Shown here: positions 2,244 to 62,790 of the stretch, piece by piece
Numbering within the stretch: position 1 is the first letter of the stretch
Layout of the letters: every line of letters starts with the position of its first letter
Virus genome (UHGV): UHGV-1375844
Length of the DNA stretch: 64,000 nucleotides
Strand: one strand, 5' to 3'
From: a virus
The notes under the pieces: generated by a model
What the model saw: the letters and a program-made list of their open reading frames with translations, nothing else
Databases searched by the model: none
What the model was told of the DNA's origin: nothing
Made by a program: the position numbers and the translations under genes

Positions 2244-2264
2244 AAAACAATTTGTTTTCTGATG
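2244..2264 (-). promoter_or_regulatory. Conserved promoter-proximal near-palindrome (AAACAATTTGTTTTCT family), copy 1, upstream of the VWA gene
   Basis: Plus-strand aaaacaatttgttttctgatg lies between a GATACA -10-like hexamer and the RBS of the gene starting at 2225; same motif at 8 other gene starts. Confidence 0.45.
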
Positions 2265-2339
2265 TGTGAAATGTATCACTGTACGAACAGGCCGCTAAAC
2301 TGTTCGTACAGGTCAACTTAGGGGATCAGGGAAGGACGT

Positions 2340-2561
2340 TTAGTTCGTTCTGACTGCTAAGGAGCCGCAGCCGGTATTGATGAGTGTGAAGCGCTTATCA
2401 CAAAGTTCGAAGGTAAAGGCGGTGGCGTCACCCATATCGAGGGAAATCTGTTTTGCTGGAAGGTCGGCTAGGATTGCCGCCACCTTTTCCTCGTGCAAAG
2501 AGAAAATATGGCCAACTTCAAGTTTGTTCAAATTACAGGCTATTTTTTCCATTTCATTCAT
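2340..2561 (-). CDS. Hypothetical small protein (73 aa)
   Basis: ORF track; divergent from the HTH gene across an AT-rich intergenic region (2562-2814); followed by a 10-bp-stem hairpin at 2281-2313. Confidence 0.35.
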   Translation of the reverse strand: MNEMEKIACNLNKLEVGHIFSLHEEKVAAILADLPAKQISLDMGDATAFTFELCDKRFTLINTGCGSLAVRTN

Positions 2562-2814
2562 CCAACTACAACGGTTTCTAAACGTTTCTGAATACTACTA
2601 CCTATTGTATCAATAAGGAATATTTTCATATCAGATGTTTCTGCTTGCGTGACAATGAAAATGCAAATCATTATTCGCTTAAGTCTTGCCCTGTCTGGGA
2701 TTTAAGAGCATAATGTGCCGCCAACAAATGATAGATAAGTCTTTACAACCCTGACCTTTGATGTAATATCAGTAAGCACTTACCAGAGACAAATAAAACA
2801 CGCAGGGTTTAATC

Positions 2815-3195
2815 ATGGCTACCAATGAAACAAAACAAGGTCGCTACGCCGCCTATATCGACTCTCTCATCACCATTTCTCCAAAAAGTCAGGCCACTAT
2901 TGCTAAGGAAATTGGGTACAAAAACCCCAATAATCTATCGCTTATCAAAAGTGGCAAAATTCCTCTGCCGGTGGACAAGGTTCGCCCGTTGGCCAACTCT
3001 TTGGATGCTGATCCAGTACGTCTCATGCTCATGGTTCTCGAAGAGCGTCACCCTGAGCTTCTTGAGTTCTTCCGTGATGAAGGCACAGCTCCGCTTTCCC
3101 AAGACGAAAAACAGGTATTGGATGCTTTTCGTAAGCGTTTCGATGGTCAACAAGGTGCTTCAGAACAGGTCGTCGAGGCCATCAAGTCAATGTGA
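2815..3195 (+). CDS. Putative HTH transcriptional regulator (candidate lysogeny-switch protein)
   Basis: N-terminal segment SQATIAKEIGYKNPNNLSLIKSGK resembles an XRE-type helix-turn-helix; divergent promoter region with 2340..2561; convergent with and adjacent to the integrase; variant of the intergenic palindrome (agtaagcacttac, 2771-2783) upstream. Confidence 0.5.
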   Translation: MATNETKQGRYAAYIDSLITISPKSQATIAKEIGYKNPNNLSLIKSGKIPLPVDKVRPLANSLDADPVRLMLMVLEERHPELLEFFRDEGTAPLSQDEKQVLDAFRKRFDGQQGASEQVVEAIKSM

Positions 3196-4293
3196 GAAAT
3201 TTATACGAATAAGCTCTGTCGCTAGACGATCTCCCTTGAAATTATGGTCTATCTCGTCTAAATCTGGTTGTTCTACGATGGATGCGATGTACGCCGAAAA
3301 TTTACATAAGGCGTCTCGCATTTCATCCATATAGTCGTGACGGTCGTAAACCCGATCTATACCTTCAAGGCTATGGTTCATGATTTTACGAGAGACTTCC
3401 TGATTAATACCCAGGGCAGGGAAATAGCTACGCGCAGTTCTTCGCAGATCGCGTGGGGTGAAAACCTCAACCTCCATCAACTCCGGACGTTCCAAAATCC
3501 TCCGGAGCGCCTGTGATATGGCTACTTTAGACATTGGCATGTCCTTATCGCGTTTCTTGTTTGAGGGCACCAGCCACTGGCTGTCTTTCCCATATTTAAA
3601 CAGTTCCTCGACGCACTTCCTCATCAGCGGGCTTAACGGTAGAGCATGTTGCCTGGCCGATTTATTACGTGTGCCTTGATTCCATACATCACGTTGAAGG
3701 TTGAACTCACTCTTCTTGGCCCGGAGCACTTCATCGGGTCGCCTGGCAGCCACGAGACATAATCTGGCCGCCCACTTTGTCCCTTCGCATACGTTGAAAT
3801 AATCCCAGACGTTCCAAAAAACCCAAACTTCGGCGTCCGTTAGCTTCCGTTCCCGGGGCGTAGGTTTGGCGCCACCAGCGACTTTGTTGAGCGACATATC
3901 GTTCAACGGCGACGTTTCGATGACCCCCTGGAAGGCGCACCAGCCCAAAAACTGCTTCATCAGGGAAAACACACGCCTGCCCATGACGATCTTCCCTTCC
4001 AGAATGAGCGGGTTCACCAGCTGGTTGACGAGAACCCTACTAATGTCACTTACTTTTACATCAGAGATAAAAGGTAAAACATGTATCAAAACACAATGGA
4101 CGGCGATCTCCGGTCGGCGTCTTGTTATGAGTAAAGATAAGCGAGTGAATAACAAGAAGGCATCTGAAAACTTCATGTCGCCACTTACCAGAGAGGCTGC
4201 CATCGCATTCATTTGCGAAGCCCGTTCCAGAAACTCAATCGCTTCTCGTGAGGTGTTTTCGGCTGCGCGTGCTCGATCAAACGAATTTTTCAT
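3187..4293 (-). CDS. int: Tyrosine recombinase / phage integrase (P4-like)
   Basis: C-terminal FTPRDLRRTARSY ... NHSLEGIDRVYDRHDY matches the box II / catalytic Tyr region of tyrosine integrases, but with Arg where the first box II His is usual; 368 aa. Confidence 0.75.
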   Translation of the reverse strand: MKNSFDRARAAENTSREAIEFLERASQMNAMAASLVSGDMKFSDAFLLFTRLSLLITRRRPEIAVHCVLIHVLPFISDVKVSDISRVLVNQLVNPLILEGKIVMGRRVFSLMKQFLGWCAFQGVIETSPLNDMSLNKVAGGAKPTPRERKLTDAEVWVFWNVWDYFNVCEGTKWAARLCLVAARRPDEVLRAKKSEFNLQRDVWNQGTRNKSARQHALPLSPLMRKCVEELFKYGKDSQWLVPSNKKRDKDMPMSKVAISQALRRILERPELMEVEVFTPRDLRRTARSYFPALGINQEVSRKIMNHSLEGIDRVYDRHDYMDEMRDALCKFSAYIASIVEQPDLDEIDHNFKGDRLATELIRINFSH

Positions 4294-4559
4294 AGTCCAA
4301 TCACTTAGTTAGCCGTAACACTGTATGTATAAACAGTATATTAGGCATTGTTTCTTATGGGATCAAGCCTAACGTTACAGTGATTTTACCAATGATTCCA
4401 TACTTAATAGGTATGGAATCATTAGAGGGCATTTTTTTGAATTTTTACCAGTATTTGGGGGGAGAGATTATGGAAACAGTGACCAGTTGCAGAAACGATT
4501 AAAAAAGAGTGGCTAAGCGCGGTAAGCCCAAACCGAATGAAGAGTTACCGCGCGAAATT

Positions 4560-5183
4560 TTAAAAATCTTCCGCTTGTTCGTACCAGTCGCGTTCGGTAT
4601 CCGATTCTATGCGAGTAATTTCAAAATCCTCATCAATAAAATTCCACTTTTCATCACGCCATGACAAACGAACTTTGGCCTCTACATCAAACTCTGTACC
4701 GGAATAAACATGGTCAGGCAGCTGATCGCCCAAATAGTTGAATGCCACCTGCATGTCAAGAATACCCTTTGTTTCATCGTAAGCAGTATCGAGTACCGTT
4801 AGATCATCAATGACGAAACCTTCGGCGTTCGTGGTTGCGATATCTGCTGCTAACTCGTCATCCACGGCCATTTCAAGAGAGAGAAAGGGGCCATTATGAT
4901 AGATAGCTTCTTCGAAATTATTGTCACCAAAAGCGGCCATTAACAAACGAGACTCAAGCGGCGTTTCTTTGGAAACCTTAGTAAGCTCATGATAATTAGA
5001 GAAGTTCGAGTTTTTGGCGATGATCTCTAATGCCTGAGAATGCGTGAGAGAAACATCTGAGCGAGCCAGTTTTTTGGCTTTGGTTTTGATGAGTTCAAGA
5101 CAAGAATATTGTGACATGGCCGTTCTCCAAATTTCTGACGCTTTTGGAAACCGATAGCCTGCTAACCGGACTCCGCGCGTCAC
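4560..5183 (-). CDS. Hypothetical acidic protein (likely start at internal Met, MSQYSCLELIKTK)
   Basis: ORF track; no recognisable motif. Confidence 0.45.
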   Translation of the reverse strand: MTRGVRLAGYRFPKASEIWRTAMSQYSCLELIKTKAKKLARSDVSLTHSQALEIIAKNSNFSNYHELTKVSKETPLESRLLMAAFGDNNFEEAIYHNGPFLSLEMAVDDELAADIATTNAEGFVIDDLTVLDTAYDETKGILDMQVAFNYLGDQLPDHVYSGTEFDVEAKVRLSWRDEKWNFIDEDFEITRIESDTERDWYEQAEDF

Positions 5184-5385
5184 AAATGTGGGCGAGCCAA
5201 GTATTTTAAGGGTAAATCATGATGGGCTATTGCTTCGCGAGACAGGCGCCAGGTGACCATCACCACCTGGCGTCATAATGGCAAATTCATCTAATTAAGT
5301 CAAACTGAGCATCTCTGGTGCGGGTTGATCCAAAAAGATTGCCGTATAAATTACTATTACTGAACGTGGCTAATGTGGGCCTTTT

Positions 5386-5634
5386 TCATAGCGTACTCAC
5401 CAGTGCCGCAAATTCTGTATAACCCCCGATAGGCTCACCATTTACGAACACCTGCGGTATGGTTTCCACCGGCTTGCCAACCAGGTCGCTCAACTTCTCT
5501 TTGTCGATCCCGGCCGCCATGATGTCAATGTATTCGTAATCACCAAAGCCGTGGCCCTGCAGCTGCTTCGCCAGCTCGACCGCACGTTTGCAGTATGAGC
5601 AATTATCGCGTCCGTAGATAACGACCTTCATCAC
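5386..5634 (-). CDS. Glutaredoxin (NrdH/Grx-like)
   Basis: 82 aa; VVIYGRDNCSYCKRA CxxC active site and TIPQVFVNGEPIGGYTEF glutaredoxin signature. Confidence 0.8.
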   Translation of the reverse strand: MMKVVIYGRDNCSYCKRAVELAKQLQGHGFGDYEYIDIMAAGIDKEKLSDLVGKPVETIPQVFVNGEPIGGYTEFAALVSTL

Positions 5635-5996
5635 TTCACCTCGTGCAGCTGCTGCTTGAGAAGATAGCCTTCCAGGGGCCAGATTTTGGCAATCGCGTTC
5701 TGGCGTGCAATTTTACGTCCGATCTCCGGATCAAAGTTCTCCGGGCTGGCGCACGCAGACTCGCCAGTTACCGTGTAGCCGTTCTCCAGCACAAGAACGC
5801 AGAAGGTCAGCAGTTCGAGTGATTGCGGGGCCGGCTCAGGCTCTTCCTGCTTCAGCCACAACGGTGAGCTGCGATATCCGTCCGCGCCGGTAAAGTAAAA
5901 CTCGCCTGAGATAACGGCTTCGATGCGTTCCGGGGTAACACGCGCGGCCGTTTTGCCTTTGGCCACGATCTCTTTCTCGATATCCATATCGGTCAT
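5631..5996 (-). CDS. Gp49-like phage protein (PF13876-like)
   Basis: 121 aa; segment VTGESACASPENFDPEIGRKIARQNAIAKIWPLEGY resembles the N4 gp49 / Sf6 gp66 family as I recall it; 4-nt overlap with the glutaredoxin gene. Confidence 0.45.
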   Translation of the reverse strand: MTDMDIEKEIVAKGKTAARVTPERIEAVISGEFYFTGADGYRSSPLWLKQEEPEPAPQSLELLTFCVLVLENGYTVTGESACASPENFDPEIGRKIARQNAIAKIWPLEGYLLKQQLHEVK

Positions 5997-6011
5997 TTTG
6001 GTTTCCTTACG

Positions 6012-6242
6012 TTAAAAACGAGCAATCCGGGTACGAAGAATCAGCTCATAGGCTTTCATCGCGTCCAGCTGCTTAATGAGCATGTTGCGGTCGACATCAG
6101 GGAGACGACTAAAAATCTCGGTGGCTGTGAAGCACTCCAGCTTGAAAATACGGCGCGACAGATCTTCCTGTTCCTCTATCACGCGCTGCTGGTGAGGCAG
6201 ATATTCTTTGGTCACGCTTATCTCCTTATTGGTAGGCTTCAA
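6012..6242 (-). CDS. Hypothetical small protein (76 aa)
   Basis: ORF track; overlaps the end of the PhoH gene by 17 nt. Confidence 0.4.
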   Translation of the reverse strand: MKPTNKEISVTKEYLPHQQRVIEEQEDLSRRIFKLECFTATEIFSRLPDVDRNMLIKQLDAMKAYELILRTRIARF

Positions 6243-6999
6243 GCGCTATTTTGCATAACTCAGACCGTACACAGTCCTCGCTCTCAAACTCAATCCGACC
6301 AACATATTCAGACGGCTTAAAGCGCTCCATAGCGTCTTCCAGCCCGGATTTGACGCTGCCAGGAAGATCGCATTGGGTGATGTCCCCGTTAACGATAACC
6401 GTGACGTTTTCTCCCATACGGGTCAGGAACATTTTCATTTGTGACGCTGTCACGTTTTGAGCTTCATCCAGAATCACCACAGCGTTTTCGAAAGTGCGCC
6501 CACGCATGTAAGCGAAGGGGGCAATCTCCACTTTGGCCACCTCTGGCTTTAAGTAGTATTCGAGAAACGAGCCACCCAGACGCTTCTGTAGCACGTCATA
6601 GACTGGCCGGAAGAACGGAGCGAACTTCTCGCTCATGTCGCCCGGAAGAAAGCCCAGATCTTCGTCTGCTTGCAATACCGGCCGAGTCACGATGATCTTG
6701 TCTACTTCCTTATTAAGTAGACGCTGCGCTGCAACGGCCGCGGCCAGGTACGTTTTACCGCAGCCAGCTTCGCCAGTGGCGAACGTTAGCGTTTTGGTAT
6801 CGAGGGAGATGAGATAGTGGGCCTGGGCCTCGTTTCGCGCTTCGAGAGGAGAGTTGTCGCGCTTCGGTTTCGGAGGCAGAGCAGGGGCGGCAGCCAGTTC
6901 GTCAACAATGATTGTGTCAATTTCATAGCCACGAATACGTGATTTTGACTTCAGCGCCTGGCGAGCTGCGCGACGCGCCTGTTTACGTTTGTTTCCCAT
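6226..6999 (-). CDS. phoH: PhoH-like ATPase
   Basis: Walker A GEAGCGKTYLAAAVAA and downstream PhoH-like motifs; start re-placed at the internal ATG at 6999 (MGNKRKQARR) which has AGGA 6 nt upstream. Confidence 0.85.
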   Translation of the reverse strand: MGNKRKQARRAARQALKSKSRIRGYEIDTIIVDELAAAPALPPKPKRDNSPLEARNEAQAHYLISLDTKTLTFATGEAGCGKTYLAAAVAAQRLLNKEVDKIIVTRPVLQADEDLGFLPGDMSEKFAPFFRPVYDVLQKRLGGSFLEYYLKPEVAKVEIAPFAYMRGRTFENAVVILDEAQNVTASQMKMFLTRMGENVTVIVNGDITQCDLPGSVKSGLEDAMERFKPSEYVGRIEFESEDCVRSELCKIALEAYQ

Positions 7000-7046
7000 G
7001 TTGAGTCCTTTCAAGTGAGTCACCGGCCTGACTATAGCTAAATATG

Positions 7047-7066
7047 ATAAGTAAGTCATTACTTAT
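7047..7066. repeat. Intergenic palindrome family (ATAAGTAAG-n-CTTACTTAT), copy
   Basis: ataagtaagtcattacttat between the PhoH start and the plus-strand moron. Confidence 0.6.
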
Positions 7067-7205
7067 TTATCGTGGCTTTGTGCTAGGTTAAAACAGCTTT
7101 GGGGAGCTGGTGCGCTTAAGGCCTTCCAGAAAACTCAAACTAGCTGAAATAGTAGGGTCAATTAGGTATCATTCCTTTTCAAATTTAACCAAAGACTCTT
7201 ATAAA

Positions 7206-8438
7206 ATGCCTGCTTTGTTAATTCTCATAATTGGGACATTGATGATTATTTTCTGGGATGTGATTAAGGAAAACGTAGAGGTTATAGGTACGCTTGCCAC
7301 TTCACTTGCCTTTTTTGCTACTGCCTGGGCTGCTTACGAGGCAAGGCATAGTGCAAAGGCGGCAATGAAGGCGACCCAGCTGACGGCTGATTCACTTCTT
7401 GAAATGAAAAAAGCCTCTTTTAAGGAGTGGTACGGCATTTTACTTGAACAGCATAATAAATTACTTGAGGATGTTAATAAGACCTTATTGGATGACAATG
7501 AACTTAATACCAGGTTGAATATTAATGTCATAAGAGGTATTTATTATCACGTAACCAAAAATCCTGCTTACATTAAGTATATTAATCACATAATTTTAAT
7601 CCTGAATTATGTAGATAAAGACTTTTATCTGCCGTCCTCGGCGGAAAATGAAAAGAGATCTTATATAGAACAGTTGCGCAACAGCATTAGCCCAAAAGTA
7701 AGCCTGCTGATTGCTATTTTTGGCCTTAATATCGACAATAATAAAACTTATGATGCAAAGAAACTTTACAACCTTCTAAGCAAATATAACTTTTTTGAAA
7801 ATGAGCTATTTTTTGAAGTTGCAATATCAAAAGTTCATTACTTAGACACTTATGTCGCCGAGATATTTGACAAAGAATACCGAAAAGACGTTGAATTTTA
7901 TGTTGATGAAACGGTTTGTGGTCGTGCGCTCTCTTTTATCAATACGACATGCCGACACCATAGGATTACTTTCGCAGTTCAGTGGTCTTACAACAACCCC
8001 TGCCAAAAGCATTTGCTGAAAAGATTCAATGACCTACCTATGCACATGAGAAACGTCATTGGGCTGAACATGGAAAAAGCAGCCGAGAAAGTGGCTACGT
8101 TTAATTCTGAGTTGCCTGGTTTTGTCGGCTGGGAAATTAAGATTGCTAATAATAAGGTGAGAGTAATTAAGGATGAAAAAGAACTGAAAAGGCTAATAAA
8201 GCTTTACTATAAATACCCCTTTGACCCTCGACAAACTGGTATCGTGTTAACCAATGGTTTCACCAATAGATTCGCCGATGAGATTAGGAATAGTATGTCT
8301 AGCTATGCTTTACATAAAGCCTATCTAGAACTCAGCTCTAATCCGAACAAAGATCAGGTAATTGATGAGATTGTGTCAGAGGTTGAAAAAATGGTCGATA
8401 AATTTAAAACAGAACTTAATTCTTTCTGCTTTAACTGA
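7206..8438 (+). CDS. Hypothetical membrane-anchored protein, AT-rich moron
   Basis: Only plus-strand gene in a minus-strand block; markedly AT-rich, K/N/I/Y-rich; N-terminal hydrophobic helix (PALLILIIGTLMIIFW); own terminator; ORF track begins at GTG 7110, first ATG at 7206, no clear SD. Confidence 0.55.
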   Translation: MPALLILIIGTLMIIFWDVIKENVEVIGTLATSLAFFATAWAAYEARHSAKAAMKATQLTADSLLEMKKASFKEWYGILLEQHNKLLEDVNKTLLDDNELNTRLNINVIRGIYYHVTKNPAYIKYINHIILILNYVDKDFYLPSSAENEKRSYIEQLRNSISPKVSLLIAIFGLNIDNNKTYDAKKLYNLLSKYNFFENELFFEVAISKVHYLDTYVAEIFDKEYRKDVEFYVDETVCGRALSFINTTCRHHRITFAVQWSYNNPCQKHLLKRFNDLPMHMRNVIGLNMEKAAEKVATFNSELPGFVGWEIKIANNKVRVIKDEKELKRLIKLYYKYPFDPRQTGIVLTNGFTNRFADEIRNSMSSYALHKAYLELSSNPNKDQVIDEIVSEVEKMVDKFKTELNSFCFN

Positions 8439-8446
8439 CTAAAAGA

Positions 8447-8474
8447 AAAGGGGCCGAAGCCCCTTTGGATTTTG
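8447..8474. terminator. Bidirectional rho-independent terminator
   Basis: ggggc-cgaa-gcccc hairpin flanked by an A-run (8441-8449) and a T-rich run (8464-8473); sits between convergent genes 7206..8438 (+) and 8639..9250 (-). Confidence 0.7.
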
Positions 8475-8638
8475 CGCTGAAAAAAGTCTAACTACGATGC
8501 TAAGAAGCACTATGGTTAAGAACGTCTGCCGTGTCTATCACAGCGTTGAACGGTCTGGGTGACGTTAGCGGAGTCATTTAGTGAATGGAATCCCAAACCG
8601 TTCAGCGATGTGCTGGCCTCCGCAGAGGCCAGTCGGTA

Positions 8639-9604: not shown

Positions 9605-9737
9605 TGGTGCCGGTTAACGGACTCGAACCGTTGACCTCTGGCCTAACATCGGATCGTTGTCATTGACCAGCCATGCTGTCTACCGAAGTAGAAACGATGC
9701 TTTGGCTCTCGCGCTCTACCAACTGAGCTAAACCGGC
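9605..9737 (-). tRNA. tRNA-like element with a ~58-nt internal insertion (disrupted or intron-bearing tRNA)
   Basis: Reverse complement starts GCCGGTTTAGCTCAGTTGGTAGAGC (acceptor + D arm) and ends AACGGTTCGAGTCCGTTAACCGGCACCA (T arm + acceptor + CCA), but 79 nt separate the D arm from the T arm; the insert contains a UUCG-tetraloop hairpin (tctac-ttcg-gtaga). Confidence 0.35.
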
Positions 9738-16763: not shown

Positions 16764-16784
16764 TAAACAAATTGTTTTCTAATG
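16764..16784 (-). promoter_or_regulatory. Conserved promoter-proximal near-palindrome, copy 2, upstream of the helicase
   Basis: taaacaaattgttttctaatg, 19 nt upstream of the helicase start. Confidence 0.45.
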
Positions 16785-19825: not shown

Positions 19826-19845
19826 GAAACAACTTGTTTTCTTAT
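19826..19845 (-). promoter_or_regulatory. Conserved promoter-proximal near-palindrome, copy 3, upstream of parA
   Basis: gaaacaacttgttttcttat, 35 nt upstream of the parA start. Confidence 0.4.
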
Positions 19846-51594: not shown

Positions 51595-51634
51595 AGATCC
51601 CTCTAAAACACGCAGAGCGCATCCTTGCGCCCTC

Positions 51635-51682
51635 TAAACAATTTGTTTAAATCTCTGTCTAACCAATTTGTTTTCTGGGTGG
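51635..51682 (-). promoter_or_regulatory. Conserved promoter-proximal near-palindrome, copies 4 and 5 (tandem), upstream of terS
   Basis: taaacaatttgtttaaatc (51635-51653) and accaatttgttttctgggtgg (51662-51682). Confidence 0.45.
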
Positions 51683-51707: not shown

Positions 51708-51765
51708 ACCTGCTTCCGTATATAATTAATAAGTGACTTAATATTTATTTATACGGAAGCAGGCT
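51708..51765. repeat. Long palindrome B (same family as 17650-17706)
   Basis: cctgcttccgtatata - AT-rich centre - tatacggaagcagg, perfect arms. Confidence 0.65.
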
Positions 51766-51788
51766 CCACATCTGACTCCCAGACCTGC

Positions 51789-52055
51789 TTACATCACCAG
51801 TAACTTGGCCCTTGCTCGACCCAATGCAGTCAGCCCCAGCGTGCGGCGGTGATAGCCTGAATCCCCGCGCTGCCGACACATTCCCTTCTCCACCAGCCCC
51901 TTTTTCACCAGTGCGCGGATAGAGAACTGCATACTCTGCTTGGTCGTTTTGTACGGCAGGACTTCAAGCAGCTCGTCCAGATCAAGCAGATTCCCTCGCT
52001 CGTGCCCTAAATTGATGGTTTTAATGATGTCTTTCTGTTTGTCGGTCAAAGTCAT
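51789..52055 (-). CDS. Putative winged-helix DNA-binding protein (88 aa)
   Basis: Basic C-terminal half; last gene of the ParB-ATPase-GNAT operon. Confidence 0.4.
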   Translation of the reverse strand: MTLTDKQKDIIKTINLGHERGNLLDLDELLEVLPYKTTKQSMQFSIRALVKKGLVEKGMCRQRGDSGYHRRTLGLTALGRARAKLLVM

Positions 52056-56833: not shown

Positions 56834-56835
56834 TA

Positions 56836-57114
56836 ATGAGCGATAAACGCGCTATACATTGCCAGGTGCAACTGACCGAGAAGGCCAACGACAAGCTGGA
56901 AAACTTTCAAAATCGTCTTCGTGAACGCAACATTAAGTTGTCAAAGGCAGACATCATCAATCTGGTGCTGGCCAACATGACAGTTGCCGATTTTGATAAG
57001 GCAGCGACATCTCTGGAGGCGTCAGCGAAAGCTCGTGAAAAAGTCATGAAAATTTACGAGAACTCGGGGATGACCAAAGAAGATTTGGCCGATATTCTAA
57101 AACGTCTCGACTGA
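56836..57114 (+). CDS. Hypothetical small protein (92 aa)
   Basis: ORF track; followed by terminator hairpin atggcgcc-ttta-ggcgccat + GTTTT (57121-57145). Confidence 0.45.
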   Translation: MSDKRAIHCQVQLTEKANDKLENFQNRLRERNIKLSKADIINLVLANMTVADFDKAATSLEASAKAREKVMKIYENSGMTKEDLADILKRLD

Positions 57115-57120
57115 ATCAAG

Positions 57121-57145
57121 ATGGCGCCTTTAGGCGCCATGTTTT
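57121..57145 (+). terminator. Rho-independent terminator
   Basis: Perfect 8-bp stem, 4-nt loop, T-rich tail. Confidence 0.6.
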
Positions 57146-57176
57146 AATGAACTGATAAGGACTTTGTTCAGGTACG

Positions 57177-57599
57177 ATGAAATACGTAATAATTCCACTA
57201 ATCACCACCTCTGCTTTACTTCTTTCCGCATGTCAGTCCCGTCCTGTTTCTGTTTCTGATGCAAAACCCGCGCCGCAGGCCAGAGTATTCAAATATCAGA
57301 CTCCAGAAGCCTCCACCCTGGTGGTCTTACGTGATAAAGGCATGGTCGGCTCTGGATGTGACGCTTCCATCTTCATCAATGGGGAAACCGTCGCAAAACT
57401 GGAGACAGGTGAAAAAGCCACTTTCCATCTTGCAGCTGGAGAATGGATCGTCGGAGCCTCGCTTGAAGGTTCCGGACTGTGCGCACTTAACCCGGCACGA
57501 CAGGAGCGTGAAACAATTACCAAAGCCGGTGACACGAAAGTGTTCAGGGTGTTTACCAGCAATGCTGGTGACATAGATATTCTTCCAACGACGCTGTAA
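57177..57599 (+). CDS. Lipoprotein (140 aa)
   Basis: Signal peptide and lipobox (IIPLITTSALLLSAC). Confidence 0.55.
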   Translation: MKYVIIPLITTSALLLSACQSRPVSVSDAKPAPQARVFKYQTPEASTLVVLRDKGMVGSGCDASIFINGETVAKLETGEKATFHLAAGEWIVGASLEGSGLCALNPARQERETITKAGDTKVFRVFTSNAGDIDILPTTL

Positions 57600-57603
57600 T
57601 GAC

Positions 57604-58131
57604 ATGACGAACATAACTGACATCACCTACGGTATACCTGCAGAAGTCTGGCCGCGGGATTATTCTAACGTCGAGAAGGCACTCATGTTCTGGCGTAAAT
57701 CCCTCATTCCTGTAAGGGTCACGATGGAGGATGGTCAGGTGTTCTGCATGTATGTGCAGGGTCTCATGTCATCCCGCAATAAGGTTGATCTTTGCTCTGC
57801 CCCGTTCGACAAAGAAAATCGTATAAGGCTCCCACTTGAGCGGATCAGCACGATTGAGTCGGGTGTGACAGAAAGTATTGGACACGACTTCAAGGGGCGA
57901 ATCACGATTAACCCCGAATATGTTGATAATCGGCCATCTCGCCGGGACTTCTTCAAAATCTGTCGGCAGGCTCATGCGTCTCAGAAGTCTATAAGGGTGT
58001 ACATGGCGGATGGCCGTGAAATTGAAGGTGTGTCATTAGGCGTTGACGCTTGCCAGGTCACGATCGGCATTGGTGAAGGTCGCAAGATGGTGGTCTTGTT
58101 CGATTGGGTCGAAAGGATTATACCGTTTTAA
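57604..58131 (+). CDS. Hypothetical protein (175 aa)
   Basis: ORF track; 4 nt after the lipoprotein gene. Confidence 0.45.
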   Translation: MTNITDITYGIPAEVWPRDYSNVEKALMFWRKSLIPVRVTMEDGQVFCMYVQGLMSSRNKVDLCSAPFDKENRIRLPLERISTIESGVTESIGHDFKGRITINPEYVDNRPSRRDFFKICRQAHASQKSIRVYMADGREIEGVSLGVDACQVTIGIGEGRKMVVLFDWVERIIPF

Positions 58132-58452
58132 ATCTATAAGGGTAATAACCGGCTAAGTCCGGTTATTATTTTATGGGTCACTTCTTCACTATATATTCCT
58201 TACAGCCAATTCCCGCCAATAATATATAAGGGCAATCTCACAATTGCGTTATTTATTTAGGGAACACCTTCAAGAAAAACGGATTTATTTCTAAGACTTT
58301 GATTTTTATTGAATAAAATTTTTTCCTGCTACCTTACAAAAAATACTTGCTTTTAAAATTCATATAGCGATAATTACACACATCGAAAGCGAACACGCTA
58401 ACGATAAATAAAAAACAAATTAATTTTCAATATTACATAAGGATTAAATATT

Positions 58453-59100
58453 ATGTCTAACGTTATCTCTAAAAAAGCTATCATCGACGCTGCTGTAGTT
58501 ATCACTGAAGAGCTTCAGATCAAAGCAAATGAAGCAAGCCAGACACGCGAACAACGCGCTAAAAATGGAACTGCTACCAAAGCAGATAAAGCTAACGAGC
58601 TTGCAGCCACTACTAAACTTGCATACTTCACTAACAACGTATTAAACGCGCTTAAAGATGAAAAATTAGCTGGTGTCTTTTACTACGCGATTAAAGCCAG
58701 CAAGCAAGATCCAGAAGTATTTTTCCGTGAAGCGATGACTAATAGCTACTCTCTCGAAAAGCTGGTTTATCTGGTGAAGTCTATTAAGTCTGGCAAATGT
58801 GTTTATTCAGTCGCTGATATGTCAGGATCTCGCGTATTCGCATTAATCGAAATGATTAATGATGAAATGGAAACTTTTACTAATGGCGCTGTATTCGATT
58901 TAATGAATGAAGCTAAAAAAGCATGTGAGATTAAATTAGACGCTGGCTACACTCAAGCCAATCAGCTTATCAATTTGTGTGAACGTCTGGGACTGGTCGA
59001 GAAGATCAAAGGAATGGGCGCTGCTAAAAACGGATCTCAGCAATATCGCTTTATCAAGAATGATTTTTATAACTATCTGGCTGAAGCGTTCAAAGCGTAA
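58453..59100 (+). CDS. Hypothetical protein (215 aa), AT-rich moron-like gene
   Basis: Preceded by a ~300-bp very AT-rich promoter-like region (58140-58450); followed by a strong terminator. Confidence 0.5.
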   Translation: MSNVISKKAIIDAAVVITEELQIKANEASQTREQRAKNGTATKADKANELAATTKLAYFTNNVLNALKDEKLAGVFYYAIKASKQDPEVFFREAMTNSYSLEKLVYLVKSIKSGKCVYSVADMSGSRVFALIEMINDEMETFTNGAVFDLMNEAKKACEIKLDAGYTQANQLINLCERLGLVEKIKGMGAAKNGSQQYRFIKNDFYNYLAEAFKA

Positions 59101-59112
59101 TTAGATGGATAT

Positions 59113-59138
59113 AGCGCCCACTATGGGCGCTAGTTTTA
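59113..59138 (+). terminator. Rho-independent terminator (agcgccca-ctat-gggcgct + T-run)
   Basis: Hairpin followed by agtttt. Confidence 0.6.
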
Positions 59139-59150
59139 AGGATAAAAATC

Positions 59151-59354
59151 ATGACAAGCTATGACCAGATCCTCGCGGAGTATCGCGCAAAATATCGCGC
59201 TTATAAACTTGAATTAATCGACGATCTAAAAGCGCAACGCGATAAACTAAATTTTACTTTTGCTGATTTGCTTAACAGTAAAAGAGACTGTAAACGCAAG
59301 CGTGAATATTTGCGCTTGTCTGAAATGATCGGAAAACTGCAAAACAGCATTTAA
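59151..59354 (+). CDS. Hypothetical small basic protein (67 aa)
   Basis: ORF track; AGGA RBS; flanked by two near-identical terminator hairpins. Confidence 0.45.
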   Translation: MTSYDQILAEYRAKYRAYKLELIDDLKAQRDKLNFTFADLLNSKRDCKRKREYLRLSEMIGKLQNSI

Positions 59355-59356
59355 AC

Positions 59357-59430
59357 AAAAGCGCCCACTATGGGCGCTTTTTTCGTTTCAGGATCTCCAC
59401 CATAACGCGCCAACAATGGCGCGTTTTCTT
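59357..59430 (+). terminator. Tandem rho-independent terminators
   Basis: aaagcgccca-ctat-gggcgcttttttcg (59357-59382) and aacgcgcc-aacaat-ggcgcgttttctttt (59404-59430). Confidence 0.65.
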
Positions 59431-59859
59431 TTGTCTGGCGTTCACTCATTCACAACAAAAATAAGCTCCATAAAAACGCCACTGCGACGCGTTTTAACGT
59501 GTGGCAATACGTACCCATAGCTAAAACAAAAAAGCGCTCAGAATGCGAGGTGTGGCGTTTTAGTGTATGGCTTATTTTATGCTGTCGTGGGCGTGATCGT
59601 CTGGCGTTATCTGGCGACGTGATCCGCGCCATCCTTCGGGACGTGTCGGCAATAATGGCGTGATCCGTGGGCGCTCGCGTATAGTCTCCACGTTGGCGCA
59701 ACGTGTACGCGCTTACAGTCTCGTTTATTCAGTGATTCATAATCACATAGCGAAAGCTATCCGGATGGCTCAGGGGCTGAAAAGCCCACCAGCACCACCC
59801 CAGCGCCTCTGTGCATTTTCTGGTGTGATTCTGAGCGTCTCCCGCTCGGTTTCTACATA

Positions 59860-59990
59860 GAGGCAAACCCAGCCGTTTCCCGAAAATTCCCTGGCCGTTT
59901 CCCTACGGCTGCCCGAATCGCTCTCTGGCCGTTCCTGAAGTTTTCCCCTGCGGCAGCGGGCGTCCAAAAAGAAAGGGCCGTTTCCAGCCC
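59860..59990. repeat. Iteron-like array 1 (GCCGTTTCC motif, 4 copies)
   Basis: cagccgtttccc, ggccgtttccct, ggccgttcctg (variant), gggccgtttccag at irregular 25-40-bp spacing. Confidence 0.55.
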
Positions 59991-59998
59991 CTCCCCTC

Positions 59999-60481
59999 TC
60001 ACACGCCAGGCAGGATATGAATGCGGTTGCTGACATACATCTCTTTCACGAAGTCCCCGCATGTGACTTTCCATTCACTGACACCGGCTTCATAAACCAC
60101 GTTTTTGCATTTAAGTGCATTGTCAGCGATACGCACACCCTGCGCTGTTGCTTCCTGGTCGGTGAAGTCGAACCCGGATTCAGTTTTGACCCACACGGCA
60201 ATTTGTGTTGCCAGCTCGATGAGTTTTGACTGGCAGAAGCGACCGCGTCGTACCGGGAAGATAAATACCCCGAACCCCGCGGTGGTAACGTAGGCTTTTT
60301 CGAATACGCGTTTATGTCGACGGTTACAGATAATGTTGCTGGCGATCTGCTGCTTCTCTTTCCCTGACAACTCAATGGTCTCATTGCCACGCCAGGCGCC
60401 CAGCACGCTTTTTTCAATGTCAGAGTAAGTCACGGAGATCGTGCCATGCTCGGGAGTGTTCACAGTAGCGATATAGTTCAT
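59999..60481 (-). CDS. Hypothetical early protein (160 aa)
   Basis: ORF track; own promoter-proximal motif upstream. Confidence 0.5.
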   Translation of the reverse strand: MNYIATVNTPEHGTISVTYSDIEKSVLGAWRGNETIELSGKEKQQIASNIICNRRHKRVFEKAYVTTAGFGVFIFPVRRGRFCQSKLIELATQIAVWVKTESGFDFTDQEATAQGVRIADNALKCKNVVYEAGVSEWKVTCGDFVKEMYVSNRIHILPGV

Positions 60482-60493
60482 CGAGATAATCCT

Positions 60494-60517
60494 TTAAACA
60501 ATTTGTTTTCTTGATGG
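60494..60517 (-). promoter_or_regulatory. Conserved promoter-proximal near-palindrome, copy 6
   Basis: ttaaacaatttgttttcttgatgg; on the minus strand follows GATAAT (-10-like) with a TTGGAC -35-like box 16 nt upstream. Confidence 0.5.
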
Positions 60518-60704
60518 TTTAATTATCGCTACGCGTATCAGGCGTCCAAGCGCTCTATTCCGGCATCTGTTTGCCTGAAGGGAGTCAGAGGGTCGTTCGG
60601 TAGCCTGGCGGTAAGAGGTGGGTGTTTTGCCTGATGTGATGAGGTTGGTATATCTGGCGGGCAAGCGGTGCTATCTTGGCCGCAGGTAACTCAGGAGACT
60701 CAAG

Positions 60705-60893
60705 ATGTTAGATAAACTGGATAATCTGCAATTAAGCGAAGAAGAGGCAACGGCTCTGGCCCAGCTCGTCAAACGACTCACCTGGACTGATATGCGAGGC
60801 TGTGCCGTTGACGATGATGAGGCGTATACCATCAGTGATGCGGTCGCCAAATTGCAGAAGAGTCTCGCTGAAGCAGGCTTCGCTCCGCGATAG
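60705..60893 (+). CDS. Hypothetical small protein (62 aa)
   Basis: ORF track; AGGAG RBS. Confidence 0.35.
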   Translation: MLDKLDNLQLSEEEATALAQLVKRLTWTDMRGCAVDDDEAYTISDAVAKLQKSLAEAGFAPR

Positions 60894-60920
60894 GCCACCA
60901 GCAAGGGTGGCCCCGTTCTC

Positions 60921-61202
60921 TTAGTGGAGCAGACCGACGTCGATGGTGTCGCCGGAGTCTGTGATGCGGATCATCAGCATGGCGAAGGCATTTAACGGAT
61001 AGCCTGCGTGCCACTCCGGGAAACGATCGTCTCGCATGAAATCGGCAATGTCATACACGCTGTCCTGAAAACGGAAGAAGCGGGTGGCGCTCTGCTCGTC
61101 GTATTCAACATGATCCATCTCCTGCTGTTCTGCCGGCGACAGGTCCAGCCAGGACTCCAGGTAAACATTTTCAGCTTTAGGGGTAATTGTAAAATCGGTC
61201 AT
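60921..61202 (-). CDS. Hypothetical early acidic protein (93 aa)
   Basis: ORF track; own promoter-proximal motif. Confidence 0.45.
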   Translation of the reverse strand: MTDFTITPKAENVYLESWLDLSPAEQQEMDHVEYDEQSATRFFRFQDSVYDIADFMRDDRFPEWHAGYPLNAFAMLMIRITDSGDTIDVGLLH

Positions 61203-61220
61203 GTGCTTAATCCTCAGTGC

Positions 61221-61244
61221 GTAAACAATTTGTTTTCTTGTTGG
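61221..61244 (-). promoter_or_regulatory. Conserved promoter-proximal near-palindrome, copy 7
   Basis: gtaaacaatttgttttcttgttgg followed by taattatcgc (GATAAT on the minus strand). Confidence 0.5.
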
Positions 61245-61329
61245 TGTAATTATCGCAGTGTGAATAAGGCAGAAAACATTTTGTTATCGGGGGCAAGTAA
61301 GTGGCGCGGGATTCGCGCCACTGGCGGGA

Positions 61330-61722
61330 TTAGGCGAACACGCTTTCAGGGATGTAATCATCAATGAGTGCGCCGGAGTTAATGCGCAAACCGTACTGAC
61401 CCATCCAGGTGCTGTTAGGGTTAAGATCTGAGGTGAACAGCGCGTTCACTTTCGTCATAAGCGATTCGAACATCGTACTATCGACGGTGCGGAAGTAGGC
61501 TTCCAGTTTGAGCAGTAGCGGATCTGATGCGTCGCTAATGTTCTGGTAGCCAATGGCGTATGTGCTCTTATCAGTACCCTTACGCACTAAGGTGCTGGTA
61601 TGTACCTCAGTTCCGGTGGTGTTATCACGCACAACAACGGTCAGTTTGGCAGTGGCTTCGCCGGAGGTGGTCTCAGATGCATAATGCAGATCGAGTACCA
61701 GATTTTCACGTAAAACAGTCAT
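61330..61722 (-). CDS. Hypothetical early protein (130 aa)
   Basis: ORF track. Confidence 0.45.
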   Translation of the reverse strand: MTVLRENLVLDLHYASETTSGEATAKLTVVVRDNTTGTEVHTSTLVRKGTDKSTYAIGYQNISDASDPLLLKLEAYFRTVDSTMFESLMTKVNALFTSDLNPNSTWMGQYGLRINSGALIDDYIPESVFA

Positions 61723-61762
61723 TATCTTCTCCCTGTGTTAGACCCCTTTTATATTATTGTCA

Positions 61763-61778
61763 TAAGTAACTACTTACA
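61763..61778. repeat. Intergenic palindrome family, copy
   Basis: ataagtaactacttac. Confidence 0.45.
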
Positions 61779-61852
61779 ATACAGAGTAGCCAAAAAAGCC
61801 CCGAAGGATGGACGGGGCTGTCGTAAATTCGACTAAACGCTTTTGCACATGG

Positions 61853-62164
61853 TCAGGCTGTGGCTTGAAGAGAGACGCGCTGTATTTCCTGCTGGGCTGC
61901 TTTATTGGCTTCAAGTAATGCCAGCTCAAGCTCCCCTTCTGGCCATATCATTTGTTTGGACACCCATCCTGTTTTCCCCTGGCGTCTGACACTCATCACA
62001 TAGCGCGAGCGGGCGCCATTTTCGAACGTGACAAGTGTCTCCTTGAAGAGCCTGATGGATGTACCGTTTGCGATAACATCAAGGAGAGTCAGTTGCTTCA
62101 GTATTGTTGGCTTGGCCTTTTTTGGCTGCCCAACACTCAGTCTGGAAATCATCCCGATATTCAT
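61853..62164 (-). CDS. Hypothetical early protein (start at internal Met, MNIGMISRLSVGQ)
   Basis: ORF-track frame extends through the promoter motif; ATG at 62164 lies just downstream of motif copy 8. Confidence 0.45.
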   Translation of the reverse strand: MNIGMISRLSVGQPKKAKPTILKQLTLLDVIANGTSIRLFKETLVTFENGARSRYVMSVRRQGKTGWVSKQMIWPEGELELALLEANKAAQQEIQRVSLQATA

Positions 62165-62175
62165 ACACAACTCCG

Positions 62176-62199
62176 TAAACAATTTGTTTTCTTGATGGC
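62176..62199 (-). promoter_or_regulatory. Conserved promoter-proximal near-palindrome, copy 8
   Basis: gtaaacaatttgttttcttgatgg; TATTAT -10-like hexamer on the minus strand. Confidence 0.5.
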
Positions 62200-62304
62200 G
62201 TAAATAATACCAGTGTGAAAACGGTGACAAAGCGTGTCGTTACGGCGCTGCGCTGCCCCGGAGGTGGCAAACAACAAAAAGCCACCGTGCTGGTGGCCTC
62301 ACTC

Positions 62305-62523
62305 TTAATCTTCTTCGTCCGGGAACTCGCTGTGTACCGCGTCCACCAGCTGCCGCTTTTCATCTTCACTCAGCAGGTGCCAGATATCCTTCCCTTTGGG
62401 CGATTCCCCTTCTGCCGGGACGAACGACCATAGCTTGCGGTGCAGTTCCGGCCCTACAGCATCCAGACATTCGGCCAGCGAATCCACACTCCACACCTCA
62501 ACCAGCACAGGCATCTTAATCAT
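62305..62523 (-). CDS. Hypothetical early acidic protein (start at internal Met, MIKMPVLVEVW)
   Basis: ORF track 62305..62601; internal ATG 62523 has a GAGGG RBS. Confidence 0.4.
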   Translation of the reverse strand: MIKMPVLVEVWSVDSLAECLDAVGPELHRKLWSFVPAEGESPKGKDIWHLLSEDEKRQLVDAVHSEFPDEED

Positions 62524-62533
62524 CTCTTCGCCC

Positions 62534-62752
62534 TCACTTCGTTTCTGACGTTGTGCAGTTCCACGCGACGGACATTGGGCTGTCCTCGATATGGAAATCA
62601 AACGTCCCTTCTCTGTACCCTTCAGAGATAAGCGTCGCTACGCGAGTAGTGACATCCTGGGAACGGATAACGTCATCGAGGGAGATCTGGAGTTCGTCAG
62701 TGCATGTCTCTTCTCCGCAAAGGGTGATGCTGATATTAAGATGCTTGTACAT
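62534..62752 (-). CDS. Hypothetical early protein (72 aa)
   Basis: ORF track; promoter-proximal motif upstream. Confidence 0.45.
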   Translation of the reverse strand: MYKHLNISITLCGEETCTDELQISLDDVIRSQDVTTRVATLISEGYREGTFDFHIEDSPMSVAWNCTTSETK

Positions 62753-62767
62753 GTGTTTCTCCTTTGT

Positions 62768-62790
62768 CTAAACACGTTGTTTTCTTATTG
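62768..62790 (-). promoter_or_regulatory. Conserved promoter-proximal near-palindrome, copy 9 (variant AAACACGTTGTTTTCT)
   Basis: ctaaacacgttgttttcttattgg followed by ttattatcgc. Confidence 0.45.

What the first reader, a model, noticed from the sequence alone, without database searches (positions are those of the whole stretch)
2244..62790. Conserved near-palindromic element AAACAATTTGTTTTCT immediately downstream of -10-like hexamers at nine gene starts
Copies lie upstream of the VWA gene (2244), the DnaB-like helicase (16764), parA (19826), terS (51635 and 51662, tandem) and four early genes (60494, 61221, 62176, 62768). On the coding strand the four early-gene copies share an extended block, GATAAT or TATTAT, then ~12 nt, then AAAACAAATTGTTTAC, then the RBS. 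This places the palindrome around the transcription start or early 5' UTR. The arrangement looks like a phage-specific promoter class with an embedded operator, defining a regulon that spans early, replication, partition and packaging genes.
Basis: seen in the sequence. Interest (0 to 1): 0.6.

Follow-up and report, generated by a model that had tools for sequence, protein, structure and literature searches.

The report
Shared operator-like palindrome at phage-plasmid promoters
A 13-base palindrome (AAACAAnTTGTTT) sits at fixed positions around the promoters of about twenty genes in SSU5-type phage-plasmids, and it is most likely the docking site of one still-unidentified DNA-binding regulator that controls early, replication, partition and packaging genes together.

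Summary
All nine copies are at the stated coordinates, giving 17 strand-matches against 1.0 expected. All are oriented with the downstream gene, 12–41 nt before its start codon.

The window is an SSU5-type phage-plasmid. SSU5 and Cyrano carry about 20 copies each, and distant Klebsiella relatives keep the core unchanged. The motif is specific to this group. A Moellerella relative lacks it entirely.

The copies sit in a conserved cassette: terminator, CTGCCTTTT box, extended −10 (TGnGATAAT), A-rich leader, RBS. The palindrome takes two exact positions, centred near +14 (this window) or near −38 (most relatives). Some promoters have both, 51 bp apart. At dnaB, parA, the VWA gene and terS the offsets differ but probably stay within the polymerase footprint.

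It is not an RNA hairpin. The FljA-family protein encoded nearby is a tandem Hfq-like fold, and its known target, the fliC leader, does not resemble the motif.

The best reading is a DNA operator for a dimeric repressor. An 88-aa winged-helix protein next to terS is the best candidate, but the evidence for it is weak. This is an ordinary kind of element, apparently undescribed, in a clinically relevant plasmid family.

The parts
2244..2260 (-). Palindrome unit AGAAAACAAATTGTTTT upstream of the VWA/CobT-like gene. A TG-extended -10-like TACATT lies at 2270-2275, one nucleotide closer than in the early cassette.
   Evidence: orthologous copies in SSU5 (42722) and Cyrano (43101)
16764..16780 (-). 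Palindrome unit upstream of the DnaB-like helicase gene. The -10-like TAGCAT starts only 16 nt before the palindrome centre, so the site would overlap the start point.
   Evidence: orthologues SSU5 34378 and Cyrano 32073
19826..19842 (-). Palindrome unit upstream of parA, 35 nt before the ATG.
   Evidence: orthologues SSU5 30442 and Cyrano 29252. Cyrano ParA is about 5x above background in lysogens.
51660..51676 (-). Distal of two direct copies, 25 bp apart, upstream of terS.
   Evidence: the tandem pair is conserved in SSU5 (49/74) and Cyrano (50/75)
51635..51651 (-). Proximal copy upstream of terS.
51614..51633 (-). Terminator-like hairpin plus GCGTGTTTTA lying between the terS palindromes and the terS ATG (51594).
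   Evidence: (z = -3.0)
60495..60511 (-). D-type copy (centre about +14) upstream of the early 160-aa gene.
60522..60527 (-). -10 hexamer GATAAT of that promoter, 25 nt before the palindrome centre.
61222..61238 (-). D-type copy upstream of the early 93-aa gene. Its extended -10, TGcGATAAT, has the hexamer at 61249-61254.
61271..61287 (+). Degenerate inverted copy at the upstream (U) position of the same promoter, 51 bp centre to centre from the D copy.
   Evidence: the same arrangement is seen in SSU5 93655/93706
62176..62192 (-). D-type copy upstream of the early ~103-aa gene. Its extended -10, TGgTATTAT, has the hexamer at 62204-62209.
62769..62785 (-). D-type copy upstream of the early 72-aa gene. 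Its extended -10, TGcGATAAT, has the hexamer at 62796-62801.
51789..52055 (-). p88, an 88-aa winged-helix protein. It is the best candidate for the palindrome reader, but this is unproven.
   Evidence: counter-evidence
57604..58131 (+). FljA-family protein with a tandem Hfq/Sm-like fold.

Best explanation
The element is a cis-regulatory palindrome with core AAACAAnTTGTTT and 17-nt unit AGAAAACAAnTTGTTTA. It is built into a conserved promoter cassette of SSU5-type phage-plasmids: upstream terminator, CTGCCTTTT box, extended -10 TGnGATAAT, A-rich leader, RBS. It most likely acts as double-stranded DNA, as the operator of one dimeric sequence-specific protein. Bound copies lie where RNA polymerase would be expected to sit (inferred from -10 positions): centred near +14 in this window, near -38 in many relatives, at both positions 51 bp apart in some promoters, and overlapping the start point at dnaB. 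A bound protein would therefore block initiation or promoter escape. This would hold about twenty early, replication, nucleotide-metabolism, partition and packaging promoters under common negative control, either in the plasmid-prophage state or as a shut-off during development. What is shown: the sites, their geometry, their conservation, and the lack of RNA structure. What is inferred: that a protein binds, and that the effect is repression. The best candidate is the family-specific 88-aa winged-helix protein p88 (51789-52055). A conserved host protein is the main alternative.
For: - Enrichment: 17 matches against 1.0 expected. All strong copies are intergenic and oriented with the downstream gene in the window, SSU5 and Cyrano.
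- Both arms are conserved equally. At the Cyrano orthologue of the VWA site the flank has diverged so that it scores best in the opposite orientation, while the core is kept.
- Across 83 sites in six elements, -10-like hexamers pile up at exactly two offsets from the palindrome centre: +26 (23 sites) and -25/-26 (17 sites).
- On the coding strand 21 sites class as upstream (U), 19 as downstream (D) and 1 as both. Only 3 show such a hexamer on the opposite strand.
- U copies lie upstream of the -10, so they are not transcribed from that promoter.
- Non-cassette promoters place the site at other offsets that still fall between roughly +5 and +13. This is how operators behave.
- Consensus from 85 D and 63 U non-redundant contexts.
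- As RNA the palindrome folds at only -0.7 kcal/mol. Six of seven leaders tested are no more stable than shuffles, and the seventh (terS) owes its stability to a separate hairpin. There are no compensatory double changes, against 63 one-sided changes that break pairing.
- Genes behind the motif are at or near background in Cyrano lysogens.
- The motif is specific to the SSU5 group.
Against: - There are no start-site or binding data, so every position relative to +1 is inferred from -10-like hexamers.
- The exact spacing in the cassette class could reflect common descent of a duplicated cassette, not function.
- The invariance of the core, across elements whose proteins are only 30-70% identical, is unusual for an immunity operator. 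Immunity operators normally diversify.
- No candidate reader is convincing. p88 keeps an identical recognition helix in the Moellerella relative, which has no palindromes at all. It is also only weakly expressed in lysogens.
- parA carries a site yet is expressed about 5-fold above background in lysogens.
Confidence: 0.55

Rival explanations
1. RNA-level operator. The downstream copies are transcribed into the 5' UTR. There they would be bound by the element's FljA-family protein, a tandem Hfq-like RNA binder, which blocks ribosome access. This is how FljA acts on fliC mRNA.
For: - Window 57604-58131 is a full-length Flag1_repress/FljA match, E 2.7e-89.
- FljA-type regulators prevent fliC mRNA translation (PMC2652032).
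- It is the only annotated regulator in the control region. It is expressed in Cyrano lysogens and conserved in 834 plasmids.
- D copies end 1-3 nt before the SD in the cassette.
- Full D copies become rarer as the FljA-like protein diverges.
Against: - Copies upstream of the -10 are the commonest class in distant relatives and cannot be 5'-UTR operators.
- Conservation is two-fold symmetric, which an RNA-binding Sm ring does not require.
- The core is unchanged while the FljA-like protein falls to 41, 37 and 27% identity. True FljA, at about 35% identity, recognises a fliC leader whose best match to the motif has 4 mismatches, no better than leaders from species without FljA.
- The parA and terS copies lie 35-41 nt from the start codon.
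Confidence: 0.12
2. Positive promoter element. The upstream copy would substitute for the missing -35/UP region, read either by RNA polymerase directly or by an activator bound near -38. The motif would then define a promoter class, not an operator.
For: - These promoters have no TTGACA-like -35.
- The spacing is exact, with GTTTnC-N17-GATAAT and an A-tract at -44 to -39.
- From memory, T4 early promoters use GTTTAC plus an extended -10, and class II activators bind near -41.
- A further conserved CTGCCTTTT box lies at about -30.
Against: - Copies centred at +14 (all four early promoters in this window) and at about +5 (dnaB) cannot activate or be read as a -35.
- D-only promoters keep the cassette without any upstream palindrome.
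- The Moellerella relative keeps the same promoter skeleton with no palindrome.
- The left arm is as conserved as the right arm.
Confidence: 0.13
3. Passive passenger of a mobile regulatory cassette. The terminator-promoter-leader unit would have spread by duplication and recombination between small early genes, as described for T4 PeSL cassettes (from memory). The palindrome would be conserved by descent or as a recombination target, with no binding function.
For: - The whole block of about 90 nt, not only the palindrome, is shared among many small early genes.
- The early region is highly variable between relatives.
Against: - The palindrome is much better conserved than the rest of the cassette: information content is near maximal across both arms.
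- It also occurs at non-cassette core-gene promoters (dnaB, parA, VWA, nrdB, terS) with unrelated flanks.
- It persists unchanged in elements whose cassettes have otherwise diverged.
Confidence: 0.07
4. Same operator mechanism, but the reader is a conserved host protein of Enterobacteriaceae and Yersinia, not a protein encoded by the element.
For: - The core is invariant across elements whose own proteins are 27-75% identical.
- It is absent from the one relative found in a Morganellaceae host, although that relative keeps homologues of every candidate protein.
- No element-encoded candidate fits cleanly.
Against: - No known enterobacterial regulator consensus that I could recall matches. The KdgR, PurR, NadR, TyrR and parS half-sites differ in sequence or spacing. 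This check is from memory only and was not run.
- The motif is not enriched in unrelated enterobacterial phages.
- The Moellerella element is also the most diverged relative, so host and element history cannot be separated.
Confidence: 0.2

Closest known systems
Phage P1 C1 repressor and its dispersed operators (comparison from memory)
   Same: Both are phage-plasmids in which one short operator sequence is scattered over the genome at many separate promoters, including a DnaB-type helicase gene. A single protein could therefore hold unlinked operons off.
   Different: The P1 operator is an asymmetric 17-mer (ATTGCTCTAATAAATTT), unrelated in sequence. No C1 homologue was looked for or found here. 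This motif is a symmetric 13-mer with two fixed positions around an extended -10.
KorB/OB global regulon of IncP plasmid RK2 (PMC11790492 listed; details from memory)
   Same: Both use a 13-bp palindrome repeated about a dozen times on a plasmid. Class I sites lie just upstream of the -35 at about -39/-40, close to the -38 class here. Both coordinate replication, partition and transfer or packaging genes.
   Different: The sequence differs (TTTAGCSGCTAAA). KorB is a ParB-family CTP clamp. The two ParB_N proteins of this element are silent in lysogens, and nothing links them to the motif.
MarR-family and small winged-helix repressors with palindromic operators overlapping promoters
   Different: p88 has no sequence match to any Pfam or NCBIfam family. 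MarR proteins usually control one local operon, not about 20 dispersed promoters.
FljA-fliC mRNA translational repression in Salmonella
   Same: A full-length FljA-family protein is encoded next to the early region. Many copies of the motif lie in the predicted 5' UTR directly before the SD.
   Different: The fliC leader does not contain the motif. Many copies lie upstream of the promoter. The conservation is two-fold symmetric.
T4 PeSL (promoter-early stem-loop) cassettes (comparison from memory)
   Same: Both are a terminator hairpin followed directly by an early promoter, repeated between many small early genes in a variable region.
   Different: The sequences are unrelated. Here an extra palindrome is embedded, and it also occurs outside the cassette.

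Membership tests
Sigma-70 extended -10 promoter | TGn immediately 5' of a TAnnnT-type -10 hexamer, with a weak or absent -35 | tested here: met
   TGcGATAAT, TGgTATTAT and TGaTACATT at five window sites. The consensus is TG.GAtAAT in 148 contexts. No canonical -35/-10 promoter is detected. Start sites were not mapped.
Repressor operator overlapping a promoter | Two-fold symmetric site located inside the RNA polymerase footprint | tested here: met
   Palindrome centres fall at about -38, +5, +11 to +13 and +14 relative to inferred start points. Both arms are conserved.
Repressor operator overlapping a promoter | A cognate protein binds the site and lowers transcription | not testable with these tools
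   The only evidence is indirect: genes behind the motif are near background in Cyrano lysogen RNA-seq.
FljA-type mRNA operator | An FljA-family protein is encoded by the element | tested here: met
   PF03614 full length, E 2.7e-89; present in 834 plasmids.
FljA-type mRNA operator | The site resembles the known FljA target, the fliC 5' UTR | tested here: not met
   The best match in Salmonella and Citrobacter fliC leaders has 4 of 12 positions mismatched. E. coli and Kluyvera leaders do no worse.
FljA-type mRNA operator | All functional copies lie in the transcribed leader | tested here: not met
   21 of 83 sites, and most sites in L009-L011, lie 26 nt upstream of the -10.
Structured RNA element (hairpin) | Stable fold with compensatory changes | tested here: not met
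   The fold is -0.7 kcal/mol. Leader z-scores run from -0.9 to +1.5, except terS, whose stability comes from a separate hairpin. There are 0 compensatory changes against 63 that break pairing. Rfam finds only two tRNAs in the window.
KorB/ParB-type OB site | 13-bp palindrome TTTAGCSGCTAAA read by a ParB-family HTH protein | tested here: not met
   The sequence differs. ParB_N proteins are present but silent in lysogens. Binding was not tested.
P1 C1 operator | Asymmetric 17-mer ATTGCTCTAATAAATTT and a C1 homologue | not tested
   The sequence plainly differs from the consensus as I recall it. No C1 search was run.
MarR-like winged-helix regulator (p88) | Winged helix-turn-helix fold with flanking dimerisation helices | tested here: met
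MarR-like winged-helix regulator (p88) | The protein's presence and reading residues track the presence of the site | tested here: inconclusive
   The HTH is invariant wherever the palindrome is. The palindrome-free Moellerella element keeps the recognition helix and changes only five wing residues.

The most novel reading that the evidence does not exclude
The leader copies of the motif are RNA operators for the tandem Hfq-like FljA homologue. SSU5-type phage-plasmids, including Y. pestis pMT1 and pHCM2-type Salmonella plasmids, would then run a genome-wide post-transcriptional regulon alongside a DNA-level one. The FljA repressor of Salmonella flagellar phase variation would be a domesticated copy of this phage regulator.
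Probability: 0.1. Interest if true: 0.75.

Novelty: new member of a known kind. Interest (0 to 1): 0.42.

Why it matters
SSU5-type phage-plasmids are common in clinical Klebsiella, E. coli, Salmonella, Enterobacter and Yersinia pestis. About 800 records in the plasmid collection carry the marker proteins. They carry resistance genes (PMC9600943, listed).

I found nothing published on how they control the switch between plasmid maintenance and phage production. A single site shared by about twenty promoters is a direct experimental handle. A pull-down on this 17-mer should identify the master regulator. Mutating it should de-repress defined gene sets. The cassette gives ready-made regulated promoters. 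The mechanism itself is a familiar kind, so the value is practical, not conceptual.

Tried and rejected
1. FljA-like protein as reader of the palindrome.
- It was attractive at first: a full-length Pfam match, a lysogeny-block location, and motif copies in the 5' UTR.
- It was weakened by several results. Upstream copies exist. The real fliC leader shows no resemblance to the motif. The core is unchanged while the protein falls to 27% identity. The fold is Hfq-like with no HTH.

2. RNA hairpin or known RNA family. Rejected.

3. Sigma-28 promoter idea, prompted by CGATAA in the -10 and by the FljA link. The -35 TAAA is not at the required spacing when read from the sequence, so this was dropped.

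4. Covariation tests.
- The motif does not change in L009-L011, so no covariation signal is available there.
- The Moellerella outgroup has no motif, yet it retains homologues of p88, p92 and p215 and a remote FljA homologue.

5. Pfam, PHROG and NCBIfam scans of about 25 small proteins found no DNA-binding family. PDB sequence searches were also empty.

6. Scan of viral contigs for other phage families sharing the motif. Only chance single hits appeared outside the SSU5 group.

7. Literature.
- The 13-mer core does not occur in any held paper.
- There are no SSU5 or pHCM2 operator papers.
- No paper links FljA to phage-plasmids or to an Sm fold.
- Three relevant papers could not be opened.

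8. Matching the motif to known host regulator consensus sequences was done from memory only and gave nothing.


Full report

Yes. AAACAATTTGTTTTCT with up to three mismatches gives 17 strand-matches in the window, against 1.00 expected from dinucleotide-preserving shuffles. The largest shuffle value was 5. The second form gives 18 against 0.70.

The nine copies lie at the stated coordinates. A weight matrix built from them finds no other strong copy in 64 kb. It does find one degenerate copy at 61271-61287.

All nine are on the minus strand, which is the coding strand of nearly all genes here. They lie 12-41 nt upstream of a start codon.

The unit is 17 nt, AGAAAACAAnTTGTTTA, around a 13-bp perfect palindrome, AAACAAnTTGTTT.

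**2. What the window is**

It is an SSU5-type phage-plasmid, 83-85% identical in DNA to Salmonella phage SSU5. It is also related to Klebsiella, E. coli (Cyrano) and other phage-plasmids. The closest record is a Salmonella plasmid, NZ_CP030187.1.

**3. The motif is family-wide**

- The full SSU5 genome has about 20 strong copies. Cyrano has about 17.
- Almost all are intergenic and oriented with the next gene.
- The genes include terS (a tandem pair in every element), parA, dnaB, the VWA/CobT-like gene, nrdB, a DNA methyltransferase and many small early genes.
- Three distant Klebsiella phage-plasmids keep the 13-bp core unchanged, although many of their proteins are only 30-70% identical to the window's (structural proteins up to 90%). 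They have 7-10 perfect copies per 40 kb.
- In a scan of viral contigs, 72 of 120 loci with the exact unit are SSU5-related and carry several copies. The 48 unrelated loci are mostly single hits in low-GC DNA with no consistent context.
- A complete SSU5-related plasmid from Moellerella has no perfect copy and only three one-mismatch copies. SSU5 has 11 and 9. None of the Moellerella hits lies at dnaB, parA or nrdB.

The motif is therefore a derived, group-specific feature.

**4. Anatomy**

The key result came from the distant relatives. There the palindrome mostly lies upstream of the extended -10. The arrangement reads CCTTAAACAAnTTGTTTyCTGCCT, about 12 nt, then TGnGATAAT. The leader keeps only the half-site AGAAAACAA, or nothing.

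Across 83 sites in six elements, -10-like hexamers pile up at exactly two offsets from the palindrome centre:
- +26 (23 sites), which places the centre near -38;
- -25/-26 (17 sites), which places the centre near +14.

On the coding strand, 21 sites class as upstream (U), 19 as downstream (D) and one as both. Only three show such a hexamer on the opposite strand.

Promoters that carry both copies have them 51 bp apart centre to centre. Examples are window 61280/61229, SSU5 88325/88376, Cyrano 93120/93171 and L009 29710/29659. In these pairs the longer arm, AGAAAAC, faces the -10 on both sides.

Consensus from 85 D and 63 U non-redundant contexts, in order:
1. T-run of the upstream terminator;
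2. optional U palindrome;
3. CTGCCTTTT box;
4. about 9 nt;
5. TGnGATAAT;
6. tACaCCAAnA;
7. AGAAAACAA, with or without the second arm;
8. GGA.

A standard -35/-10 scan finds none of these promoters, because they lack a -35.

The remaining 39 sites include the window's dnaB, parA, VWA and terS copies. They sit at other offsets: the hexamer starts 16, 22-23, 24 and 21 nt before the centre. These offsets still fall between the start point and about +13.

All positions relative to +1 are inferred from the hexamers. No start sites are known.

**5. DNA or RNA?**

- As RNA the palindrome folds at only -0.7 kcal/mol.
- Six of seven leaders tested are no more stable than shuffled controls (z from -0.9 to +1.5). 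The seventh, terS (z -3.0), owes its stability to a separate hairpin.
- Among 56 variant copies there is no compensatory double change, against 63 one-sided changes that break pairing.
- Rfam finds only two tRNAs in the window.
- U copies are not transcribed from the promoter they accompany.
- At the Cyrano orthologue of the VWA site the flank has diverged so that the site scores best in the opposite orientation, while the core is kept.

Two-fold symmetry, independence from orientation, and placement on either side of the -10 all point to recognition as duplex DNA by a symmetric dimer.

**6. The FljA lead**

The 175-aa protein at 57604-58131 is a full-length member of the FljA family, the repressor of phase-1 flagellin (E 2.7e-89). 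FljA-type regulators are reported to prevent translation of fliC mRNA (PMC2652032). Since many motif copies lie in the predicted 5' UTR, this was an attractive reader.

In its favour:
- It is the only annotated regulator in the control region.
- It lies in a block transcribed opposite to the phage genes.
- It is expressed in Cyrano lysogens.
- It is conserved in 834 plasmids.

Against it:
- The true fliC leader of Salmonella and Citrobacter (…ccaataacatcaagttgtaattgataaggaaaagatcATG) matches the core with four mismatches at best. Leaders from species without FljA do no worse.
- The core stays identical while the FljA-like protein falls to 41, 37 and 27% identity. True FljA, at about 35% identity, has a different target.
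- The upstream copies cannot be leader operators.

I keep an RNA-level role for the downstream copies as a minority possibility.

**7. Other candidate readers**

Family scans of about 25 small proteins found no DNA-binding domain.

I ranked the window's proteins by conservation in the distant relatives. An 88-aa protein at 51789-52055 (p88) stands out at 73-75% identity.
- Its gene ends just upstream of the double site at terS.
- Its homologues are all from SSU5-type contigs and are unannotated. It occurs in 798 plasmids, always at 61% identity or more.
- Its helix-turn-helix is almost invariant in all six palindrome-bearing elements.
- In Cyrano RNA-seq it runs above its flanking late genes in several lysogen conditions.

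Against p88: the palindrome-free Moellerella element retains it with an identical recognition helix. Only five wing positions that are otherwise invariant have changed, including the loss of two arginines.

The 92-aa protein at 56836-57114 looks ribbon-helix-helix by eye and is strongly expressed in lysogens. However, its putative DNA-facing residues vary among elements that share the same palindrome.

The 215-aa protein at 58453-59100 is silent in lysogens.

A host protein is also possible. That would explain why the site does not change, and why it is absent from the relative in a Morganellaceae host. I could not scan host genomes, and no regulator consensus I recall matches the motif.

**8. 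Most likely mechanism**

A dimeric DNA-binding protein occupies the palindrome inside the region covered by RNA polymerase and represses initiation or escape. Paired sites 51 bp apart, about five helical turns, or 25 bp apart at terS, would give stronger or cooperative repression.

The set of promoters spans early genes, replication (dnaB), nucleotide metabolism (nrdB in SSU5), partition (parA) and the head of the packaging and late genes (terS).

Genes behind the motif are at or near background in Cyrano lysogens: 5.7-25 normalised counts, against a median of 9.8. ParA is higher, at about 50. This is consistent with repression but does not prove it.

Whether the protein maintains the plasmid-prophage state or shuts off early genes during development is open.

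The unusual point is that the site does not diversify, unlike classical immunity operators.

**9. Comparison with known systems and novelty**

It works like the dispersed operator regulons of other plasmid-like elements: P1 C1 operators, and RK2 KorB OB sites, whose class I position near -39 resembles the upstream class here. The sequences are unrelated, and no homologous reader is shown.

The cassette arrangement resembles T4 PeSL units. Those three comparisons rest on my memory of the literature.

The 13-mer core does not occur in any held paper, and no paper describes SSU5 or pHCM2 operators.

I file this as a new member of a known kind: real, conserved and useful, but mechanistically ordinary unless the RNA-level reading proves true.

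Noticed in passing
window 7052, 10523, 29923, 42907, 48170, 55214, 61763 (first base, + strand): A second palindrome family, TAAGTAnnTACTTA. At five of the seven sites a -10-like hexamer follows on the coding strand after 0-4 nt, so the dyad is centred near -21/-22. It lies ahead of late-gene blocks and in the divergent ParB/helicase region. From memory this is the architecture of P1 late (Lpa-dependent) promoters. In the most diverged Klebsiella relative (L011) it changes to TATGTAnnTACATA, unlike the invariant AAACAA palindrome.
   Followed up: partly
window 57604-58131 (+): The FljA-family protein is predicted with confidence to be two tandem Hfq/Sm-like domains. No held paper mentions FljA together with an Sm or Hfq fold. 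The family is far more common in SSU5-type phage-plasmids (834 plasmid records) than as the flagellar phase-variation repressor. This suggests FljA may descend from a phage-plasmid regulator.
   Followed up: partly
window 51614-51633 (-): A terminator-like hairpin followed by GCGTGTTTTA lies between the two terS palindromes and the terS start codon. This suggests attenuation or antitermination control of the packaging and late operon.
   Followed up: no
window about 51722-51776: A 14-bp perfect inverted repeat, cctgcttccgtata(N27)tatacggaagcagg, lies between the p88 gene and the terS promoter. Coordinate 1 of the SSU5 record falls inside its right arm, so it may mark the genome end or packaging site.
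   Followed up: no
coding strand, about -30 to -22 of the cassette promoters, e.g. window 60540-60550: A conserved CTGCCTTTT box sits where a -35 would be, in both upstream- and downstream-type promoters. A remnant (GCCT/GCCCT) is also present in the palindrome-free Moellerella promoters. It could be a binding site for an accessory transcription factor.
   Followed up: no
L237, L239, L240 (Moellerella wisconsensis plasmid NZ_CP093251.1): This is an SSU5-related phage-plasmid in a Morganellaceae host. It keeps the gene order and the promoter skeleton but has none of the AAACAAnTTGTTT sites. Its FljA homologue is very remote and shorter (141 aa, found only by a profile search, E 1e-11). It is a useful natural control for experiments.
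   Followed up: yes
window 9608-9737 (-): One of the two tRNA matches spans 130 nt against a 71-position model. The tRNA gene may carry an insertion, or two adjacent tRNAs may have been merged into one match.
   Followed up: no
SSU5 87621-87644 (L003 37621-37644): A high-scoring copy of the motif sits in a convergent intergenic region directly beside a terminator hairpin, with no gene downstream. It looks like a decayed cassette or an antisense promoter.
   Followed up: no
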